IMG/VR virus record: IMGVR_UViG_2711768040_000016
Length of the DNA: 7,338 nucleotides
Strand: one strand, 5' to 3'
From: a virus
Taxonomy: Duplodnaviria > Heunggongvirae > Uroviricota > Caudoviricetes
The notes beneath the pieces are model-generated. The model searched no databases, was not told the DNA's origin, and saw only the letters and a program-made list of their open reading frames with translations. Shown here piece after piece: positions 1 to 7,338 of the stretch; within the stretch, counting starts at the first letter, position 1, and each line of letters starts with the position of its first letter. Position numbers and translations under genes: made by a program.

Positions 1-219
1 TCACATCCACATAATTTGCTGCCCTGACGGCAACGGGTGCGGCCTTACGGCGTGGACTTCTCCCGGCTTCACGATGTATCTCTGTACCGACTCATAAGTG
101 ATGAACGTGGCGCTGCAATTCACGTTCTGACACTGGTGATAACGCTCTTTTGTCGTGTCAGTGATATAGCGACTTGTACGCGCATGTGCGGCATGCTGGC
201 ATAAAGGACAATGAAACAT
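1..219 (-). CDS. ogr: Ogr/Delta-family zinc-finger late transcription activator (72 aa)
   Basis: Minus-strand ORF with stop at 1..3. The track ORF 1..351 is 116 aa, but the last 72 aa starting at the ATG at 217..219 (MFHCPLCQHAAHARTSRYITDTTKERYHQCQNVNC...) carry the Cys-X2-Cys-X22-Cys-X4-Cys motif characteristic of P2 Ogr. Position directly downstream of gene D matches P2 gene order. Start chosen by length match to the 72-aa Ogr family and by the candidate promoter at 254..282, which lies inside the longer ORF. Confidence 0.88.
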   Translation of the reverse strand: MFHCPLCQHAAHARTSRYITDTTKERYHQCQNVNCSATFITYESVQRYIVKPGEVHAVRPHPLPSGQQIMWM

Positions 220-253
220 CGCGAGCACCTCTTCCGGTTTTGTTGATGTTGCC

Positions 254-282
254 ATTTTAGTTAATTTATCCTTACAAAACAA
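254..282 (-). promoter_or_regulatory. Candidate sigma70 promoter for ogr (-35 TTGTTT, 17-bp spacer, -10 TAAAAT on minus strand)
   Basis: Read on the minus strand, the D-ogr intergenic region contains TTGTTT (+ coords 277..282), a 17-nt spacer, then TAAAAT (+ coords 254..259), about 35 nt upstream of the ogr ATG. GGAAGAGG lies 8 nt upstream of the ATG as a ribosome-binding site. P2 ogr is known to have its own promoter. Hexamers were identified by eye and not scored. Confidence 0.3.
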
Positions 283-301
283 ACAGATAAAATAAAATAC
301 A

Positions 302-1465
302 TCACTCATCATCTTCTGTTTCGTACTCCACATCAGAAAGCCTGACCTCAAGCTCCAGGGACGTCGTGAAGCCGCTGTTATTCAGAAAATGTGTCACCTT
401 AGTGATTGTCCAGTCCTGCTCGTCTATGACGCGCTTAAAGCCTGACACTTTAACCGGTGTTTCCGTGTAAATATCTGCCCGACCAGTAGCCAGGCTGATG
501 GAGAACTCCGCTACACCCCGTTGCAGCTTATCCCACTTCGCCTGAGCGGCGCGCATTGCCTGCGCTTTCGTGGCATATACCGTGGTCAGGGCAAAAACGT
601 TGTCAGCCTCACCGGCCATGTATTCACCTTCCCGCGCTTCCGGTACTTTTGGCGCTTTCTTCTGCGTGACCGGTTTCGCTTTGGGGTGCTCCAGTGCGCG
701 CAGGTGTTTCTCTTTCTTTTTGCGTTTCAGTTTTACCTTCTGCTTTTGCGGCTTCGGGTCTTTGGTGTGTAGCCACTTTGCCGTTACGCCGGTGTAGGCT
801 CCACGGTCAGCAATCGCAAAATGGTGACGGTCACCATCGCTGCGGGTGATGGTAATCTGCGGGATTTTTTTACCGCTGGCCGTCACCCCCTGCCCCGCTT
901 TGAGAAACAACAGTTTTCCCATTTTTACCGACACCTCACCGCCGTTGCGTTCTGCAAGACGGGTCAGGAATTTCGCATCAGACTCCTGCGACTGGTCGAT
1001 GTGCGGGATTTTAATTCCTGCCAGTGACGGCGCGACACTGGCTTCCAGCCTGTTACGGGAGGCTATCGCCTCAACAATTGCACCGAGCGTGGTGTCATGC
1101 CAGGAGCCTTCACGGCGGGAATTGAGCGTCCCGCGAAAATCTGCACTCCGGGCGTGGATGGTGACCACATCCGGTGCGCCCCGGTGTTCAACCTCATCAA
1201 CGGTAAATTTCCCTTTGCATACCAGGGCAAAACCTTTCCAGCCGATATACACCGTCAGGACAGCGCCACGAACCGGCAGTCCGACCTGCCCGTCGGCATC
1301 GTTCAGTTCAATATCAAGCTGGTCAGCCTCAAAGCCCCGGTTATCCGTCAGGGTCATGCTCATCAGACGGTCGCTGATATTGCCGGTAATATCCCTGCTG
1401 TCGAGCATCAGCATGTAATCCGGCGTCAGCGTACTGCCTGCATCAAATGTCAGCGCATCCAGCAT
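302..1465 (-). CDS. D: Tail/baseplate hub protein D (Phage_GPD family, gp27/VgrG-N-like), 387 aa
   Basis: 387-aa minus-strand ORF starting MLDALTFDAGSTLTPDYMLMLDSR. Its length and position (after U, before ogr) match P2 gpD. The start ATG at 1463..1465 overlaps the U stop as TAATG, indicating translational coupling. Confidence 0.93.
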   Translation of the reverse strand: MLDALTFDAGSTLTPDYMLMLDSRDITGNISDRLMSMTLTDNRGFEADQLDIELNDADGQVGLPVRGAVLTVYIGWKGFALVCKGKFTVDEVEHRGAPDVVTIHARSADFRGTLNSRREGSWHDTTLGAIVEAIASRNRLEASVAPSLAGIKIPHIDQSQESDAKFLTRLAERNGGEVSVKMGKLLFLKAGQGVTASGKKIPQITITRSDGDRHHFAIADRGAYTGVTAKWLHTKDPKPQKQKVKLKRKKKEKHLRALEHPKAKPVTQKKAPKVPEAREGEYMAGEADNVFALTTVYATKAQAMRAAQAKWDKLQRGVAEFSISLATGRADIYTETPVKVSGFKRVIDEQDWTITKVTHFLNNSGFTTSLELEVRLSDVEYETEDDE

Positions 1466-1944
1466 TATCCCGCCTCCGTCATACCTGTGAATCTGGTCGC
1501 CATACTGCCGGCCTTACCGATGAGCGACTCCGCCTGTTTACCGATATCGCCATAAAGCGCGGCCAGTGATTCATCAACGCGGGTGAGCGACAGCGTAAAA
1601 TCAATTTTCCGGGGTGTGCCGTCTGCAAAGAAAATACTCCCTGTTTCACTCACCTTACTGATGACATACATGCCGTAAATCATGCCGGTGCCATCCAGCA
1701 ACGGCCACGCCCGACCTTCCTCTGCCATCAGCCTGAGCGTGGTCATCGTCAGCTTGCCGCCGGTCAGTTCGGGATAAAGCACACCGGCCAGCGTGATGTT
1801 TTCCTCACCCACACCGAGAAATTGAAAGGCATCCCGTTTGCCGATACGGGAATTTGACGGCCAGCGATAATCTGATTCACGCTGCATGGTCTGGTGTGGC
1901 AGCGTCTGGCGCATAAAAACAAACATACCTAACGCGAGCATCAT
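1465..1944 (-). CDS. U: Tail protein U (P2 gpU family), 159 aa
   Basis: 159-aa minus-strand ORF (MMLALGMFVFMRQTLPHQ...) with the length and position of P2 gpU. A strong ribosome-binding site AAGGAGGTGA lies 8 nt upstream of the ATG and overlaps the T stop codon (TAA at 1959..1961). Confidence 0.93.
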   Translation of the reverse strand: MMLALGMFVFMRQTLPHQTMQRESDYRWPSNSRIGKRDAFQFLGVGEENITLAGVLYPELTGGKLTMTTLRLMAEEGRAWPLLDGTGMIYGMYVISKVSETGSIFFADGTPRKIDFTLSLTRVDESLAALYGDIGKQAESLIGKAGSMATRFTGMTEAG

Positions 1945-1958
1945 TTTTCGTCACCTCC

Positions 1959-4406
1959 TTAACCGTCATGCATCATGCTGGCACGGGCGCGCGCACGTTT
2001 ATCCCGCTCGTATTTTTCGAGCGCATCCTGTAACTGGCGGTCAAGCTGTGTCCCCGGCGCAGTACCACCCGTCAGGCTGATGTGATATTCGTTTTTACTC
2101 TGGTCCACATAAGAGCGGCCAGCCGGTGCCGTGACCGGCTGATAAGCCTGATAGCCTGCATAAGAGCTGGTCGCCGGAATATAACCACCGCTGCCATACG
2201 TGGCGACTTGAGTTCTGGCGGCGGTCTGGTCAAGTGTGTCTGACTCTTTGTTGATAACACCGAGTTTTTCCAGTACCCAGTCAATACCGCTGCGCAGTTT
2301 GTTGAACGCATTAAGCGGCAGCATCAGCGCGTCAGCCAGTGCCTGCCCGAACATGACGCCCGTGTCACGGCAACGGTTCAGGGTGTCCTGGGTGGCTTTA
2401 ACCGGGTCAATCAGGTTTTTAAACCACTGCCACGCGGCCTGTAACTTTTCGCCCAGCCAGTCAAACAGCGGCTTAAGTGGCGTGAACAGTTCCCCCACCG
2501 GCGCAAATGCTGCTTTCAGCCCTTCAACCACACCGCCAAAGAATGCGCTGACAGGCTCCCAGTATTTACGGATAAGCAACGCCCCGGCGACAATGGCGGC
2601 CACCACGGCCACAACCGGCCAGCTAATCGCCCCGATGGCCGTCATAACGGCACTGCCAACCGTCGTGAAGATTGCCCCCATTGCGCCTGCTGCCGCGATA
2701 ATGGCATTGATGCCGGTGATAACCGGCCAGGCTACAAGACCAATGGCACCGATGATGCCAGTAAGCGCCAGTGCGCCACCGACAATGAGGCCGATGGTTG
2801 ACGCCAGTGATTTGTTTTTCTTGATCCAGCCGTCTAGTTTTAACACATACTTTGTGGCCGTCTGCGTGAGATTACGCAGTGCGCCTTCCTGCTGGTCAAA
2901 CAGGTCAGTCCCCACTGCCTCATAAGCGGACTGAAACTCCTTAAAGTCACCGCCGAGGTTGTCCTGCATGATATTTACCAGCTCGGCGGTCTTCCCGTCT
3001 GAGGCTTTAAACGCAACGGTCAGTTTGTCCAGCTTTCCGGTTGAGGCGGCAGTCATCAGCACGGCAGCGGCTGAGCTGGCCTCCTCCCCGAAAATAGTTT
3101 TCATGTATTCAGCCTGCTGGGCAGTACCGAGCCGGTTTTTCTCAAAACTGGCCTGCATTTCTTTCAGAATGGTAAATATTGGCCGGGTGTTTCCCTTGCT
3201 GTCTGAGGTTTTCACTCCAAGCTCTTTGAGTGCATCCCATGCTTTTCCCGTCGGTGCCTGCAGGCGGCTTAACACGGCACGGCTTCCCGTCCCCGCCATT
3301 GAACCGGTAATTTTTGCATCATGCAGCGCCCCGACCATTGCGGCGGTTTCTTCAATGCTGACACCGGCATTTTTTGCCACAGGTGCGGCATAGGTCAGCG
3401 CATCGCTCATGCCGTCAAAATCGGCGGCGGTTTTGTTCATCGTCATGGAGAGAACATCCCCGATATGAGCGACCTTATCGTTTGAAAGCTGAAAGGCGGA
3501 TTTCATCCCCATCAGCAGGGCGGCGTTTTCTTCCATCGTGCGGCGGTTCGCCAGCGCCATATTCAGCGTGACCGGCGTTGCCGCCTGAATGGCATCAACA
3601 TCCCCACCCGCTTTCGCGATGATTATCTGTGCACCGGCCGCATCATCCGCCGAGGCGGCGGTATTATCGCCGAGCTGGCGCGCCTGTTTGCGTAGTGCGG
3701 TCATTTCGGCGGAGTCTTTTGCCACTCCGAGCACGGCCTGCAATTCTGAGTTTTTCTGCGCAAACTCATAACCGGGCATCAGCAGCTTAACTCCGGCCAT
3801 CGTTCCCGCAGCAGCAATCCCCACACCAGCAGCGCCCACTGAGGCCATGTTTCCGGCCAGTTCCTTTCCGGCCTGATAACGCTGTTTTACTGCATTAAGT
3901 TTTGCCTGTTGCGCACTGACACGCGCCAGCGCGTCACGCTGCCGGTTAAGCTGTGCGGTGGTTTCACTGATACGGTTTTTCAGCCCCAGCTCATCATGTG
4001 CAAGATTGCGGGTATTAATTCCCACAGCGGCCAGTTCCCGCTGCTGGCGTTTAACGGAATCTGTCAGGCGGTTATATTTCGCCTGTAAGTCCTCCGCCGC
4101 ACGCTTTGCGGATTCCAGCACTTTCGCCTGAGCACGGGTCGGACGTTCGGTGTTTTTAAACTGTGTGGCAAGGGCTTCGGCCTCCTGCCGTGCCTTTTCA
4201 AGTGCATGACCAGTCACGGCGAGCTGTGCACTGGTCTTGCGGAATCCCTCAATACGGGATGCCTGACCGTTCAGCTCGCGCAGTGATTTTTGTGTTTCCC
4301 GGATATCCCCCGACAGCGATTTGCTCGCTGTGCGGATGGATTTAAACGGGCGGGATGCCTGGTCAACAGCCCTGAGCAATACCTGTAATTTTACATTGTT
4401 ACTCAT
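1959..4406 (-). CDS. T: Tail tape-measure protein T, 815 aa
   Basis: 815-aa minus-strand ORF, the length of P2 gpT. The N-terminal third is Q/A/R/L-rich and coiled-coil-like. A long Gly/Ala/Ile-rich hydrophobic segment (LASTIGLIVGGALALTGIIGAIGLVAWPVITGINAIIAAAGAMGAIF...) sits at roughly nt 2575..2830, as is typical of tape-measure proteins. The start ATG at 4404..4406 overlaps the E' stop as ATGAGTAA, and the first codons decode to MSNNVK. Confidence 0.95.
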   Translation of the reverse strand: MSNNVKLQVLLRAVDQASRPFKSIRTASKSLSGDIRETQKSLRELNGQASRIEGFRKTSAQLAVTGHALEKARQEAEALATQFKNTERPTRAQAKVLESAKRAAEDLQAKYNRLTDSVKRQQRELAAVGINTRNLAHDELGLKNRISETTAQLNRQRDALARVSAQQAKLNAVKQRYQAGKELAGNMASVGAAGVGIAAAGTMAGVKLLMPGYEFAQKNSELQAVLGVAKDSAEMTALRKQARQLGDNTAASADDAAGAQIIIAKAGGDVDAIQAATPVTLNMALANRRTMEENAALLMGMKSAFQLSNDKVAHIGDVLSMTMNKTAADFDGMSDALTYAAPVAKNAGVSIEETAAMVGALHDAKITGSMAGTGSRAVLSRLQAPTGKAWDALKELGVKTSDSKGNTRPIFTILKEMQASFEKNRLGTAQQAEYMKTIFGEEASSAAAVLMTAASTGKLDKLTVAFKASDGKTAELVNIMQDNLGGDFKEFQSAYEAVGTDLFDQQEGALRNLTQTATKYVLKLDGWIKKNKSLASTIGLIVGGALALTGIIGAIGLVAWPVITGINAIIAAAGAMGAIFTTVGSAVMTAIGAISWPVVAVVAAIVAGALLIRKYWEPVSAFFGGVVEGLKAAFAPVGELFTPLKPLFDWLGEKLQAAWQWFKNLIDPVKATQDTLNRCRDTGVMFGQALADALMLPLNAFNKLRSGIDWVLEKLGVINKESDTLDQTAARTQVATYGSGGYIPATSSYAGYQAYQPVTAPAGRSYVDQSKNEYHISLTGGTAPGTQLDRQLQDALEKYERDKRARARASMMHDG

Positions 4407-4826
4407 TCGTGTTTCCGCTTCGCCGGAGCGCCTTTTCGCGCCATGTGATGAGTTCGGTCAGGCTCATGGGATACAGTTCTGATGGCGGCCAGTGAAATAT
4501 CACTGCCACATCCGCCATCAGGTCATCGACCGAGAGATTTTTCGGAAACGTCACTGCACCGAGTTCGGCGACAAAAAACCGACCACCTTACCGGCCAGCG
4601 CCACAAGGTCAGGCAGTTCCAGCGCGGCGACTTCCTGCTCGGTCAGCATCGGTGCCGTCATGCGCGGCAGCACCTTAATCAGTGCATCGACTTCGGAGTT
4701 TGCAACCGCAGCCAGACTGACACCGCGTAGCGTCCCGGCATTGGGTTTCATCAGCGTGACCTGTTCGATAACCTGCTCACCACGTTTGACCGGATTGTCC
4801 AGGGTAATGACATTTTCTTTGTTCAT
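4399..4826 (-). CDS. E': Tail assembly chaperone E+E' fusion made by -1 programmed ribosomal frameshift, about 142 aa
   Basis: After the slippery site at 4572..4578, the -1 frame stays open for 57 codons (VAELGAVTFPKNLSVDDLMADVAVIFHWPPSELYPMSLTELITWREKALRRSGNTNE), decoded by hand, and ends at TAA 4399..4401, overlapping the T start. 85 + 57 = 142 aa, the size of P2 E+E'. The arrangement is analogous to lambda G/GT. Confidence 0.8.
4551..4826 (-). CDS. E: Tail assembly chaperone E (zero-frame product), 91 aa
   Basis: 91-aa minus-strand ORF (MNKENVITLDNPVKRGEQVIEQ...GKVVGFLSPNSVQ) matching the size and position of P2 gpE, between FII and T. It contains the slippery heptamer near its 3' end. 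Confidence 0.9.
   Translation of the reverse strand: MNKENVITLDNPVKRGEQVIEQVTLMKPNAGTLRGVSLAAVANSEVDALIKVLPRMTAPMLTEQEVAALELPDLVALAGKVVGFLSPNSVQ
4572..4578 (-). other. Slippery heptamer T_TTT_TTG for the E/E' -1 frameshift
   Basis: Minus-strand sequence GGT TTT TTG in the E zero frame (codons Gly-Phe-Leu); the + strand shows caaaaaa at 4572..4578. This fits the X_XXY_YYZ pattern and matches the slippery sequence described for the P2 FETUD operon. Confidence 0.75.
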
Positions 4827-4854
4827 GGTTTTCTCACTTCTGAATCAGGGTTAA

Positions 4855-4875
4855 CCGGCCAGCCAGGCTGACCGG
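4855..4875 (-). other. GC-rich inverted repeat (potential RNA stem-loop) in the FII-E intergenic region
   Basis: Minus-strand CCGGUCAGCC-U-GGCUGGCCGG can form a stem of about 8 bp (one G-U pair) with a roughly 5-nt loop. It is not followed by a U-tract, so it is not a canonical intrinsic terminator. Judged by eye, no energy calculation. Confidence 0.25.
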
Positions 4876-4882
4876 ATGAAAA

Positions 4883-5401
4883 TCACAGGCCGATATTTCG
4901 GCGGTGTTGCTCCAGCCGGTCGACGCCGTTCACCTTCTCAATCATGTTGATGGTGTCGATTTCGACCAGCTCCTTGCCGTCCATCGTCAGCCGGAAATAG
5001 GTGCAGACCACGGAGATTTTCGACTCGGTGTCTTCTCCCTGTTTACCCTCGCCGGTGTCGATTTCTTTCTGACGTCCACGCATGACCACTTCGACGGCCA
5101 CCGTTTCGCCGGTATCGTCGCGCTGGTAAGAGCCTGCAAAACGAATCGGCACGGCATCCACACCAGTTGCGGCGTAAAGCTCCCAGATAACCGAATCCGG
5201 GAAGCCACCGAGCGACCACTCCATTGACAGCGCATCGTCATCAAGGCCGAGGTCTACCGGTGCGCTGCCGTTCATCCCCGCACCGCGATAGTTTTCGAGC
5301 TTACGGGTCAGTTTTGGCAGCGTGACGGACTTTGCAACGCCCTGATAGCTGTAGCCGTTCAGAAAGACGTTCATTAACTTGAGTTTGCGCGGCATTGCCA
5401 T
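4883..5401 (-). CDS. FII: Tail tube protein FII, 172 aa
   Basis: 172-aa minus-strand ORF (MAMPRKLKLMNVFLNGYSYQGVAKSV...) with the length and position of P2 gpFII. Ribosome-binding site AAGGAG lies 8 nt upstream and overlaps the FI stop codon. Confidence 0.94.
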   Translation of the reverse strand: MAMPRKLKLMNVFLNGYSYQGVAKSVTLPKLTRKLENYRGAGMNGSAPVDLGLDDDALSMEWSLGGFPDSVIWELYAATGVDAVPIRFAGSYQRDDTGETVAVEVVMRGRQKEIDTGEGKQGEDTESKISVVCTYFRLTMDGKELVEIDTINMIEKVNGVDRLEQHRRNIGL

Positions 5402-5413
5402 CGGTCAGGCTCC

Positions 5414-6604
5414 TTAATTGCTGTTAACCGAGGTGACCAGATTTGCCAGGTATTTATCGGTAATACGCTGGCGCAGGGTCAGGTTTTCGAGAGGAGGCAC
5501 CGGGGTATAGTCATAGTCGATATACAGTTTTCCGGCCTTGAGGGTTTCCGCATCGTTGGATTCTTCGCTGAACCAGCAGGTCGCATCCACGATATAGCCG
5601 TTTGTTTTCAGCTCACGGAATTTGGCATTGATGCCGTCAACGATGTCGCGAATCAGCGTTGCGGTGATGGGCTTGTCCACCGCCCACATGTGCGCCTCAG
5701 CCATCGTGTCGGCCAGCACCTGCGCGGTGCGGGTGTAGTTTTCAAAGAGGAACAGCGGGTCATCAGAGCAGGTACGGTTACCCCAGAAGCGGAAACCGTC
5801 GCGGCGAATCAGTGTAGTGACGCCTGACTCATTAAGCAGGTCAGCATCGGTGCCGGACTCCTGCAAATCCCAGAATACAGAGGCGCTGATGCCGGTAACA
5901 CCGTTCACCCCGACATTGGATAGCGTTTTATGCCAGCCCTGCTCCTGGTCAATTCTGGCACGCAGACCCAGCGCACGGGCGGTGGCATACGCGGTGGCGG
6001 TAGTACTGGTGACCGTATCCCATGCGAGGAAATCCGGCCAGATGACCATCAGCTCACGCTGGCTGAAATTCTGACGGTAGGCTTTCACCTCGGAAATGGT
6101 TTTACAGTCCCATGCGCTGATATACCCGAAAGCGCGCAGCTTCTGACAGACGGATGCCAGTGCAACAGCCACCTCTTTGGTGTCCAGTCCCGGCACACCG
6201 AGAATACGCGGTTTAACACCGGTTACCGACTCCGCCGCCAGCAGGGCTTTCAGTCCGGTGTACTGACCATTTTCGTCGGTGGTGCCGATGATATTGGAAA
6301 CGGTCTGCGCGAGTTTCGTTTCTTCGTCGTCGCCGGTGCCGTCTTCCACACGCACGACAACGGTGACCGGTTTTGACTGGTCGGCGATGGCCTGCAACGA
6401 TGCCGCCAGCGTGCCTTTTTTACCGGCCTTTGCAATTGCGCTCTGCACATTGGTAATCAGCACCGGTTTATTGAGGGGGAAGATTTCCGCATCCGCATCG
6501 CTGGCCGTGCAGACCATGCCGACAATGGCAGTGGATACGGTGGAAATGACGCGGGTGCCGTCGTTAATCTCCAGCACCTGCACGCCGTGATGATAGTCAC
6601 TCAT
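5414..6604 (-). CDS. FI: Contractile tail sheath protein FI, 396 aa
   Basis: 396-aa minus-strand ORF (MSDYHHGVQVLEINDGTRVISTVS...) with the length and position of P2 gpFI, first gene of the FI-FII-E-T-U-D operon. Ribosome-binding site GGAG lies 8 nt upstream of the ATG at 6602..6604. Confidence 0.94.
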   Translation of the reverse strand: MSDYHHGVQVLEINDGTRVISTVSTAIVGMVCTASDADAEIFPLNKPVLITNVQSAIAKAGKKGTLAASLQAIADQSKPVTVVVRVEDGTGDDEETKLAQTVSNIIGTTDENGQYTGLKALLAAESVTGVKPRILGVPGLDTKEVAVALASVCQKLRAFGYISAWDCKTISEVKAYRQNFSQRELMVIWPDFLAWDTVTSTTATAYATARALGLRARIDQEQGWHKTLSNVGVNGVTGISASVFWDLQESGTDADLLNESGVTTLIRRDGFRFWGNRTCSDDPLFLFENYTRTAQVLADTMAEAHMWAVDKPITATLIRDIVDGINAKFRELKTNGYIVDATCWFSEESNDAETLKAGKLYIDYDYTPVPPLENLTLRQRITDKYLANLVTSVNSN

Positions 6605-6628
6605 CCGTTTAACTCCGTGGTTAATGGG

Positions 6629-6696
6629 TGAGTGGTATTTTCAGTTGTGCCGGAGATGTCAGGCTATTTGTCCCGGTTGGCTAAGGGATGACACAA
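6629..6696 (-). promoter_or_regulatory. Candidate Ogr-dependent late promoter for the FI operon (imperfect TGT-N12-ACA-type dyad)
   Basis: P2 late promoters carry a TGT-N12-ACA dyad centred near -55. No exact match occurs upstream of FI. The nearest is TGT-N12-CCA on the minus strand (+ coords 6678..6695), about 55 bp upstream of a weak AAAATA -10-like element (+ 6636..6641). If real, it overlaps the 3' end of the invertase gene. Weak evidence. Confidence 0.18.
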
Positions 6697-7257
6697 TTTA
6701 TTCTTTGTCACTGATGAGGGGAATTTTTTATAGAGCGTGGACAGGCCAATATCAAAAATCAGCGCCACACGTTGACGAGATTCCCCCGCAGCCAGCAACC
6801 GTCCGACCTGCTCCCACTCACTCGCGGTGAGTTTCGGACGTCTGCCACCAATACGACCTTTGGCTCTGGCCGCTTCCAGTCCGGCGCGTGTCCGCTCGAC
6901 AATGAGTTCTCGCTCCATTTCAGCCAGGGCACCCATCACATGAAAGAAAAAACGCCCCATCGGCGTGCTGGTATCAATAGCATCCGTCAGACTGCGAAAA
7001 TTAACGCCGCGTTCGCGCAGTTCCTCAACCAGAATGACCAGATGCCGCATACTACGCCCCAGCCTGTCCAGCTTCCAGACTACCAGTGTGTCACCTGCTG
7101 ATAATGTTCTGAGCAGTTTTTTCAGTCCCGGTCTGTCGGACTTCGTGCCGCTGATTTTATCCTCAAAAATCCGCTCGCATCCTGCGCACTCCAGCGCGTT
7201 ACGCTGCAATTCCGTGTTCTGGTCATTTGTTGACACGCGTACATAGCCAATAAGCAT
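6664..7257 (-). CDS. Serine-recombinase DNA invertase (Gin/Pin/Hin/Cin family), about 197 aa
   Basis: The minus-strand ORF translates to MLIGYVRVSTNDQNTELQRNALECAGCERIFEDKISGTKSDRPGLKKLL...GDTLVVWKLDRLGRSM...MGRFFFHVMGALAEMERELIVERTRAGL...GRIGGRRPKL...LSTLYKKF, which is near-colinear with Mu Gin as I recall it. It includes the catalytic serine motif YVRVSTNDQ and a C-terminal helix-turn-helix. The track ORF starts two codons earlier at 7263, but GGGGG directly abuts that ATG; the ATG at 7255..7257 has better ribosome-binding-site spacing and matches the Gin N-terminus. Confidence 0.92.
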   Translation of the reverse strand: MLIGYVRVSTNDQNTELQRNALECAGCERIFEDKISGTKSDRPGLKKLLRTLSAGDTLVVWKLDRLGRSMRHLVILVEELRERGVNFRSLTDAIDTSTPMGRFFFHVMGALAEMERELIVERTRAGLEAARAKGRIGGRRPKLTASEWEQVGRLLAAGESRQRVALIFDIGLSTLYKKFPSSVTKNKLCHPLANRDK

Positions 7258-7312
7258 GAGCATCCCCCTGAATAAAAACCGGAGATGATGCCAGTTGCCC
7301 GTTATCTCTGCA

Positions 7313-7338
7313 TTTTCATAAACGTTGGTTTGGGAGAA
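7313..7338. other. hix/gix/cix-like 26-bp invertase crossover site
   Basis: The reverse complement of 7313..7338 is TTCTCCCAAACC-AA-CGTTTATGAAAA: two imperfect 12-bp half-sites around a central AA dinucleotide. It resembles hixL (TTCTTGAAAACCAAGGTTTTTGATAA) and gix as I recall them. It lies about 55 bp upstream of the invertase start, the expected position for the invertase-proximal inverted repeat. The partner site would be outside the window. Confidence 0.55.

What the first reader, a model, noticed from the sequence alone, without database searches (positions are those of the whole stretch)
4399..4826. Programmed -1 frameshift producing E and E+E' tail chaperones
The slippery heptamer T_TTT_TTG lies 7 codons before the E stop, and the -1 frame then runs 57 more codons to a stop overlapping the T start. 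This reproduces the P2 E/E' arrangement and the conserved chaperone frameshift found upstream of tape-measure genes (lambda G/GT). A standard ORF caller would miss E' or call it as a separate small gene.
Basis: partly seen in the sequence, partly recalled or inferred. Interest (0 to 1): 0.5.

Follow-up and report, generated by a model that had tools for sequence, protein, structure and literature searches.

The report
Phage P2 E/E' tail-chaperone frameshift
This is the well-known programmed -1 ribosomal frameshift that makes the two tail-assembly chaperones (gpE and gpE+E') of phage P2, sitting in a P2 prophage of E. coli and almost base-for-base identical to P2 itself, so it is real but ordinary.

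Summary
On the minus strand, gene E (4826..4551, 91 aa) carries an in-frame T_TTT_TTG heptamer at 4578..4572. Six sense codons and the stop follow it. The -1 frame then stays open for 57 codons, to a TAA at 4401..4399 that overlaps the ATG of tape-measure gene T (4406..4404). The result is a 142-aa fusion.

The 428-nt E/E' segment differs from phage P2 (AF063097) by one base, and the fusion differs from P2 gpE+E' by one residue (S29N). The P2 record already annotates the joined CDS and the -1 frameshift site at this heptamer.

In 91 of 92 related loci (aa identity down to about 30%) E' lies in the -1 frame, and all 91 have an in-frame slippery heptamer in the overlap. I found no conserved downstream RNA structure.

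One modest extra: an SD-like AGGUG sits 6 nt upstream of the slip codons, is conserved, and shows biased synonymous codon choice. It may be a stimulator. That is untested.

Verdict: already known, low interest.

The parts
4551..4826 (-). Gene E: tail assembly chaperone gpE, 91 aa (0-frame product)
   Evidence: ORF and translation. Pfam PF10109 Phage_TAC_7, E=2.6e-12. One aa (S29N) different from P2 gpE. Annotated 'phage tail assembly protein' WP_001031303.1 in the source genome.
4572..4578 (-). Slippery heptamer T_TTT_TTG (0-frame codons GG-T TTT TTG), site of the -1 shift
   Evidence: Sequence and register check. Same position as P2's annotated 'site of -1 translational frameshift'. An in-frame T6N heptamer is present in 89 of 92 related loci.
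4399..4572 (-). E' segment: -1-frame extension, 57 codons plus TAA stop. The fusion is join(4826..4572, 4572..4399) = gpE+E', 142 aa.
   Evidence: Translation. Pfam PF06528 Phage_P2_GpE, E=1.2e-21, on residues 104-139 of the fusion. 100% identical to P2 E' at the aa level. PGAP calls 4399..4554 a separate 51-aa 'GpE family phage tail protein'.
4584..4588 (-). [quoted passage not shown] Candidate upstream frameshift stimulator (inferred, untested).
   Evidence: Meets the operational SD-stimulator definition of Sharma et al. 2014 (AGGKG, 6-17 nt). Predicted anti-SD duplex of -12.8 kcal/mol is the strongest in gene E and in the top 0.27% of the strand. Present in 29/32 enterobacterial and 8/19 more distant dereplicated loci, against 14% background. 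Synonymous bias: AAG 25 vs AAA 2, and GTG 30/31.
1959..4406 (-). Gene T: tape measure protein (815 aa). Its ATG (4406..4404) overlaps the end of E'.
   Evidence: ORF. Pfam PF10145 PhageMin_Tail, E=2.4e-45. Corresponds to P2 gpT.
4883..5401 (-). Gene FII: tail tube protein, immediately upstream of E (synteny context)
   Evidence: Pfam PF04985 Phage_tube, E=2.3e-60. Corresponds to P2 gpFII.

Best explanation
This is the E/E' recoding site of a P2 (Peduovirus) prophage in E. coli.

Most ribosomes translating gene E terminate at TGA 4553..4551 and release the 91-aa chaperone gpE. A minority slip back one base on U_UUU_UUG, with tRNA-Phe in the P site and tRNA-Leu in the A site. They then continue in the -1 frame for 57 codons and make the 142-aa gpE+E', which ends 8 nt inside gene T.

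By analogy with lambda G/GT, both proteins would bind the tape-measure protein T through the shared E domain. The E' domain of the rare fusion would recruit tail tube subunits (FII). The fixed E:E+E' ratio set by slip efficiency would then be what tail assembly needs.

Shown here: the sequence geometry, near-identity to P2, Pfam domains, synteny, and conservation of the -1 arrangement and heptamer across distant relatives. Taken from the literature on P2: E' is essential and is made as a -1 extension of gpE. Inferred: the chaperone mechanism (by analogy with lambda) and any stimulatory role of the upstream SD-like AGGUG.
For: - **Identity to P2.** 427/428 nt and 141/142 aa match P2 E+E'. P2 annotates the joined CDS and the frameshift site at the same heptamer.
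- **Source.** The window is 100% identical to E. coli NZ_AP022036.1. Window 3..6684 is 97.35% identical to the P2 FI-FII-E-E'-T-U-D-ogr operon.
- **Pfam.** TAC_7 matches E and P2_GpE matches the -1 part. The flanking genes are the tube and tape-measure genes.
- **tblastn.** The fusion matches two pieces in different frames in 401 of 418 phage records.
- **Frame and heptamer conservation.** E' is in the -1 frame in 91 of 92 analysed loci. All 91 have an in-frame X_XXY_YYZ heptamer in the overlap: T6G 79, T6A 8, T6C 1, T7 1, plus A_AAT_TTT and G_GGA_AAG.
- **No independent start.** The -1-frame peptide between the heptamer and the first conserved Met (VAEFGAVxFPxxLSVDD) is conserved. In 20 of 51 dereplicated loci this stretch has no ATG/GTG/TTG at all. 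In several distant loci the Met itself is replaced by I/V/A.
- **Literature.** P2 uses TTTTTTG to make E (91 aa) and E+E' (142 aa) (PMC3091744). E' extends 37 nt back into E and lacks an RBS (PMC3931495). P2-type efficiency is 2 to 3-fold above lambda's 1:30 (PMC5009743).
Against: - Nothing in the sequence argues against it.
- No expression data exist for this particular prophage.
- U_UU.U_UU.G is not among the high-efficiency heptamers in E. coli reporter assays, where UUY A-site codons are better than UUR (PMC4066793). The reported efficiency in P2 therefore implies help from context that has not been identified.
- The window, like P2, has a GTG at 4554 that annotation pipelines use as a separate start.
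- The chaperone mechanism is by analogy with lambda. It has not been shown for P2 here.
Confidence: 0.95

Rival explanations
1. E' is an independent small gene, translated from its own GTG start at 4554..4552 to give a free 51-aa protein, as PGAP annotates it. No frameshift is needed.
For: RefSeq annotates WP_000143830.1 'GpE family phage tail protein' at exactly these coordinates. The same 51-aa call occurs on about 1000 contigs. A GTG exists in the window and in P2.
Against: - The GTG is not conserved. Most relatives have GTA or another non-start codon there, and 20 of 51 dereplicated loci have no start codon anywhere between the heptamer and the conserved internal Met. The encoded peptide upstream of that Met is nonetheless conserved.
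- In distant relatives the internal Met is itself replaced.
- The only strong SD-like sequence lies about 29 nt upstream of the GTG, too far to drive initiation there.
- The literature reports that E' lacks an RBS and is made as an extension of gpE.
Confidence: 0.02
2. The frame change is made by RNA polymerase, not the ribosome. Transcriptional slippage on the T6 run would add one U to a fraction of mRNAs, which standard translation then reads as E+E' with a GFFVAE junction.
For: A homopolymeric T run is the kind of sequence on which RNA polymerase can slip. One added U gives the same downstream frame. Reporter and fusion-protein assays do not by themselves separate the two mechanisms. 142-aa direct ORFs with the GFFVAE junction exist in a few assemblies, which shows the T7 version encodes a viable-looking ORF.
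Against: - Six T is shorter than the runs (about 9 or more) known to give appreciable slippage by E. coli RNA polymerase (own knowledge; Wagner 1990, Baranov 2005).
- The run is always in the exact X_XXY_YYZ register.
- Two distant members of the family use non-homopolymeric ribosomal heptamers (A_AAT_TTT and G_GGA_AAG, lambda's own site) at the same place.
- An SD-like element conserved at a spacing that fits ribosomal stimulation would be irrelevant to the polymerase.
Confidence: 0.03

Closest known systems
Bacteriophage P2 genes E and E+E' (AF063097 / NC_001895 19430..19857; UniProt O64312 TAPFS_BPP2; Christie et al. 2002, J Bacteriol 184:6522)
   Same: Essentially the same locus. 427/428 nt are identical, with the same T6G heptamer, the same 37-nt overlap, the same 91-aa and 142-aa products, the same overlap with the T start, and the same FI-FII-E-E'-T-U-D-ogr operon.
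   Different: One nonsynonymous base (window 4741, S29N in the shared E part). It resides as a prophage in an E. coli chromosome. Upstream of FI, the prophage carries a serine recombinase where P2 has fun(Z).
Lambda G/GT and the conserved tail-assembly-chaperone frameshift of long-tailed phages (Levin 1993; Xu, Hendrix and Duda 2004, 2013, 2014)
   Same: Two overlapping ORFs lie between the major tail/tube gene and the tape-measure gene. They are joined by a -1 slip near the end of the first ORF, giving an abundant short and a rare long chaperone.
   Different: There is no detectable sequence similarity: Pfam assigns PF10109/PF06528 and no lambda gpG family. The heptamer is T_TTT_TTG rather than G_GGA_AAG. 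The tail is contractile (a sheath gene is present). Reported efficiency is 2 to 3-fold higher than lambda's.
SD-stimulated -1 frameshift sites (E. coli dnaX, IS911/IS3 family)
   Same: An internal SD-like sequence (AGGUG) lies upstream of a slippery heptamer, within the 6-17 nt window in which such elements were shown to stimulate -1 shifting. It is conserved and shows synonymous-codon bias.
   Different: The spacing is at the short extreme (6 nt, against 10 nt in dnaX, own knowledge). There is no downstream hairpin partner. No experiment shows stimulation at this site.

Membership tests
P2 gpE / gpE+E' tail assembly chaperone pair (Peduoviridae) | Sequence homology of the 0-frame product to gpE and of the -1-frame extension to E' | tested here: met
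   141/142 aa identical to P2 gpE+E'. PF10109 E=2.6e-12 and PF06528 E=1.2e-21.
P2 gpE / gpE+E' tail assembly chaperone pair (Peduoviridae) | Position between tail tube gene FII and tape-measure gene T in the FI-FII-E-E'-T-U-D operon | tested here: met
   Gene order and Pfam domains. Collinear with P2 at 97.35% over window 3..6684.
P2 gpE / gpE+E' tail assembly chaperone pair (Peduoviridae) | E' ORF in the -1 frame overlapping the 3' end of E, with an in-frame T_TTT_TTG heptamer in the overlap | tested here: met
   Heptamer at 4578..4572, 37-nt overlap at 4587..4551. Same as P2. Conserved in 91/92 loci.
P2 gpE / gpE+E' tail assembly chaperone pair (Peduoviridae) | E' has no conserved translation start of its own | tested here: met
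   The GTG at 4554 is not conserved. 20/51 loci have no start codon before the internal Met, and the Met is replaced in distant loci.
P2 gpE / gpE+E' tail assembly chaperone pair (Peduoviridae) | The fusion protein is actually produced by -1 frameshifting and is essential | not testable with these tools
   Reported for P2 by Christie et al. 2002, as quoted in PMC3091744, PMC3931495 and PMC5009743. The primary paper is not held in the library.
Lambda G/GT-type conserved tail chaperone frameshift (functional class of Xu et al. 2004) | Two overlapping ORFs between the major tail and tape-measure genes, linked by a programmed frameshift near the end of the first | tested here: met
Lambda G/GT-type conserved tail chaperone frameshift (functional class of Xu et al. 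2004) | Sequence homology to lambda gpG/gpGT | tested here: not met
   The Pfam scan returned only PF10109 and PF06528, with no lambda gpG family. The literature states there is no aa similarity. This makes it a functional analogue, not a sequence-family member.
SD-stimulated -1 PRF sites (dnaX / IS911 type) | [quoted passage not shown] | tested here: met
   AGGTG at spacing 6. Present in 37/51 dereplicated loci, against 14% background.
SD-stimulated -1 PRF sites (dnaX / IS911 type) | The SD-like element measurably raises frameshift efficiency | not testable with these tools
   This needs a reporter assay with synonymous AAG GTG to AAA GTT changes.

The most novel reading that the evidence does not exclude
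The conserved SD-like AGGUG (UAAGGUGGUC) 6 nt upstream of the slip codons is a functional stimulator that pairs with the 16S rRNA tail of the elongating ribosome. This would explain how a heptamer that is not among the high-efficiency motifs in E. coli reporters (U_UUU_UUG) reaches the several-percent efficiency reported for P2-like phages without any downstream RNA structure. It would be a small mechanistic addition to a known recoding site. I could not establish whether it has already been noted in the primary P2 paper.
Probability: 0.3. Interest if true: 0.2.

Novelty: already known. Interest (0 to 1): 0.07.

Why it matters
In practical terms, automated annotation (PGAP and many phage records) still splits E' off as a separate 41 to 51-aa 'GpE family' gene or omits it. 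The exact 51-aa call sits on about 1000 contigs. Recognising the site lets the 142-aa essential chaperone be annotated correctly. Scientifically, it adds nothing beyond the published P2 and lambda work. The one possible addition is a testable hint that an upstream SD-like element helps the weak U_UUU_UUG heptamer.

Tried and rejected
- **Downstream stimulatory structure.**
  - The 62 nt after the heptamer fold no better than shuffles (z=+0.13).
  - A 5-bp hairpin starting 2 nt after the heptamer is too close to act as a stimulator, and its stem is broken by an A-C mismatch in some relatives that have TCACCG...CGGCG (my reading of the sequences, not a computed pair count).
  - RNAalifold on 28 relatives finds nothing conserved within 50 nt, and the covariation term is only -0.59 kcal/mol.
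  - A perfect 10-bp stem at 4521..4512 / 4488..4479 lies 51 nt downstream. It sits in the most conserved E' peptide (LMAD...PPSE), so its conservation is explained by the protein. I rejected it as a canonical stimulator.
- **Rfam.** Only two sub-threshold hits on the opposite strand (E 0.28 and 0.35). Chance.
- **Primary paper.** Christie et al. 2002 could not be read: it is not held by DOI or PMC id. Secondary quotations were used instead.
- **Chance or pseudogene.** Rejected on the conservation in 91/92 loci.
- **SD-like element as an RBS for E'.** Rejected. It is about 29 nt from the GTG, and there is no start codon in the -1 frame at suitable spacing.
Full report
**1. What is in the sequence**

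All genes in the window run on the minus strand.

- ORF listing and Pfam scans give the order ogr (1..219), D (302..1465), U (1465..1944), T tape measure (1959..4406), E (4551..4826), FII tube (4883..5401), FI sheath (5414..6604) and a serine recombinase (6664..7257/7263).
- Reading the minus strand of 4380..4850, E ends ...GGT AAG GTG GTC GGT TTT TTG TCG CCG AAC TCG GTG CAG TGA.
- The heptamer TTTTTTG occupies 4578..4572 in the register T_TTT_TTG. Six sense codons and the TGA (4553..4551) follow it.
- In the -1 frame a TAA at 4590..4588 closes the frame upstream. The frame is then open from 4587 to the TAA at 4401..4399. That is 57 codons after the slip and a 37-nt overlap with E.
- The -1 stop lies inside the first codons of T, whose ATG is at 4406..4404.
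- The fusion join(4826..4572, 4572..4399) is 142 aa.

Every number in the finding is therefore confirmed.

**2. Is it more than chance?**

The eight minus-strand genes hold six in-frame X_XXY_YYZ heptamers in 2297 codons. Five lie deep within genes (94 to 470 codons before the stop) and are followed by -1 ORFs of 5 to 33 codons. Only the E heptamer is 7 codons from its stop and followed by a 57-codon -1 ORF ending at the next gene's start.

**3. What it is**

- A megablast of 4300..4950 against phage records gives Bacteriophage P2 (AF063097, NC_001895) at 99.4% identity. The annotated features under the match are 'E+E': gpE+E'', 'E: gpE' and 'site of -1 translational frameshift'.
- The P2 record annotates E+E' as a two-piece joined CDS ('shares amino terminus with gpE; -1 frameshift; essential tail protein'). 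It places the frameshift site at the base right after TTTTTTG.
- A base-by-base comparison shows one difference in 428 nt (window 4741, A for G). This gives S29N in the shared E part. The E' part is identical.
- The P2 fusion with junction GFLVAE is the deposited AAD03292.1 / NP_046780.1 / UniProt O64312 'Tail assembly protein E''.
- Pfam places PF10109 (Phage_TAC_7, 'tail assembly chaperone proteins E...') on residues 7-85 and PF06528 (Phage_P2_GpE) on residues 104-139 of the fusion.
- The whole window is 100% identical to E. coli WP3-S18-ESBL-09 chromosome NZ_AP022036.1 4506365..4513702. More than 1500 complete E. coli genomes hold at least 80% of it.
- Window 3..6684 aligns to the P2 F operon at 97.35%.
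- In the source genome PGAP annotates E as 'phage tail assembly protein'. It annotates E' as a separate 51-aa 'GpE family phage tail protein' starting at GTG 4554. The identical 51-aa sequence is recorded on about 1000 contigs.

**4. Comparative test of the frameshift**

- tblastn of the fusion against 50,697 phage records finds 418 records. In 401 of them one place covers at least 80% of the query. All but one of the 40 records listed are joined from two pieces. The frame relation between the pieces was checked in the next step.
- I fetched 12 diverged phage loci from Klebsiella, Salmonella, Yersinia, Burkholderia, Ralstonia, phiCTX, Mannheimia, Aeromonas, Serratia and a 'Microcystis' phage. 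I also fetched 79 loci from one-genome-per-species bacterial contigs.
- In 91 of the 92 sequences analysed (the window plus these 91 loci), E' lies in the -1 frame relative to E. All 91 have an in-frame X_XXY_YYZ heptamer in the overlap: T6G 79, T6A 8, T6C 1, T7 1, plus A_AAT_TTT and G_GGA_AAG in two distant members.
- The single exception (L071, Enterobacter sp. EA-1) has T5G. This is most simply a homopolymer sequencing error or an inactivating deletion.
- The -1-frame peptide directly after the heptamer (V-A/T-E-F/L-G-x-V-x-F-P-x-x-L-S-V-D-D-L-M-A-D) is conserved. Yet 20 of 51 dereplicated loci have no ATG/GTG/TTG in that stretch.
- The window's GTG is GTA or another non-start codon in most relatives. 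In distant relatives the first Met is itself replaced by I, V or A.
- Independent initiation therefore cannot explain the conservation. A -1 shift at the heptamer can.

**5. Literature**

The primary paper (Christie, Temple, Bartlett and Goodwin 2002, J Bacteriol 184:6522) is not held, but three held papers quote it.

[quoted passage not shown] ' (PMC3931495).
- From my own memory of the Christie abstract: E' was shown to be essential by complementation, and the fusion was made at about 10%.

**6. Mechanism**

- Shown by sequence and comparison: the slip-site geometry and the obligatory -1 reading.
- Shown for P2 in the literature: the fusion is produced and is essential.
- Inferred by analogy with lambda (PMC5009743): gpE and the E part of gpE+E' coat the tape-measure protein. 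The E' domain recruits the tube protein. Neither ends up in the virion.

**7. Stimulatory elements**

- The 62 nt after the heptamer fold no better than shuffles.
- A consensus fold of 28 relatives shows nothing conserved near the site.
- A 10-bp stem starts 51 nt downstream (4521..4479). It makes the 109-nt fold unusually stable (z=-3.1). It coincides with the most conserved peptide and shows little covariation. I treat it as incidental.
- Rfam has no match.

*Upstream.*

- This satisfies the operational definition of an SD-like -1 stimulator used by Sharma et al. 2014: AGGKG, 6-17 nt.
- Its predicted duplex with the 16S 3' tail (-12.8 kcal/mol) is the best in gene E and in the top 0.27% of all 12-mers on the strand.
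- An SD-like motif at 6-17 nt is present in 37 of 51 dereplicated loci (29/32 enterobacterial, 8/19 distant). The background over other in-frame positions of E is 14%.
- At the two codons forming it, Lys is AAG 25:2 over AAA (background AAG 31%). Val is GTG in 30 of 31 (background 37%).
- These counts are not phylogenetically independent, so they are suggestive only.
- In E. coli reporters, UUG is a weaker A-site shifter than UUY. U_UU.U_UU.G is not among the efficient heptamers. No motif exceeds about ten times a 0.055% background without stimulators. Some contextual help is therefore plausible. I rate the SD-stimulator idea at about 0.3.

**8. Rivals**

- *Independent initiation at GTG 4554.* Contradicted by the non-conservation of any start.
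- *Transcriptional slippage on T6.* Not formally excluded by sequence. It is unlikely given the short run, the invariant ribosomal register, and the use of G_GGA_AAG and A_AAT_TTT at the same place in distant relatives.
- *Chance or pseudogene.* Excluded by conservation.

**9. Verdict**

The feature is the type example of the P2 E/E+E' programmed -1 frameshift, differing by one nucleotide. It is already known and of low interest. Its value is mainly in correcting annotation.

Noticed in passing
window 6664-7263 (minus strand) and 7313-7338; L002 10288-12253: Where P2 has fun(Z), this prophage carries a serine recombinase (PF00239 + HTH_7, 'recombinase family protein'). P2 homology stops at window 6684. 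A 27-nt inverted repeat (TTTTCATAAACGTTGGTTTGGGAGAAG / CTTCTCCCAAACCAAGGTATGCGAGAA) has its left arm at the window's last 26 bases. It brackets about 1.9 kb of oppositely oriented tail-fibre and tail-fibre-assembly genes. This looks like a Gin/Cin/Pin-type invertible host-range segment.
   Followed up: partly
window 4479-4521 (minus strand): A perfect 10-bp stem (CUGAUGGCGG ... CCGCCAUCAG) lies inside E', 51 nt downstream of the slip site. The 109-nt fold has z=-3.1. The stem is kept in relatives, but it overlaps the most conserved peptide (LMAD..PPSE) and shows little covariation. It is too far away to be a canonical frameshift stimulator. Its function, if any, is unknown.
   Followed up: partly
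L071 (Enterobacter sp. EA-1, CP025776.1), about 60 nt upstream of the E' motif: This is the only one of 92 loci without the heptamer. The T run is T5G, which puts E' in the +1 frame. It is probably a homopolymer sequencing error or an inactivated prophage.
   Followed up: no
proteins RJK13013.1 and QTN08932.1: 142-aa 'GpE family phage tail protein' entries with junction GFFVAE exist as directly encoded ORFs on a few E. coli contigs. Those assemblies must therefore have T7G instead of T6G. This is either a homopolymer error or natural mutants that make only the fusion.
   Followed up: no
L017 (CACSKA010000005.1 'Chryseobacterium sp. 18061'); L024 and L026 ('Vagococcus sp. WN89Y'): Contigs labelled as Bacteroidota or Firmicutes carry E/E' that is 83-93% identical at the aa level to the E. 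coli P2 genes, on contigs of up to 420 kb. The assemblies are likely mislabelled or contaminated with an enterobacterium.
   Followed up: no
L002 2764-3001 (just left of window position 1): The prophage's ogr end abuts the host fieF-pfkA region. The attachment junction should lie in the roughly 240-nt gap between fieF and ogr, just outside the window.
   Followed up: no
L010 (PP438421.1 'Microcystis phage Mae-JY29'): A phage recorded with a cyanobacterial host has a P2-type E/E' pair (41-50% aa identity) with a T7 slippery run. This is an unexpected host assignment for a Peduoviridae-like tail module.
   Followed up: no
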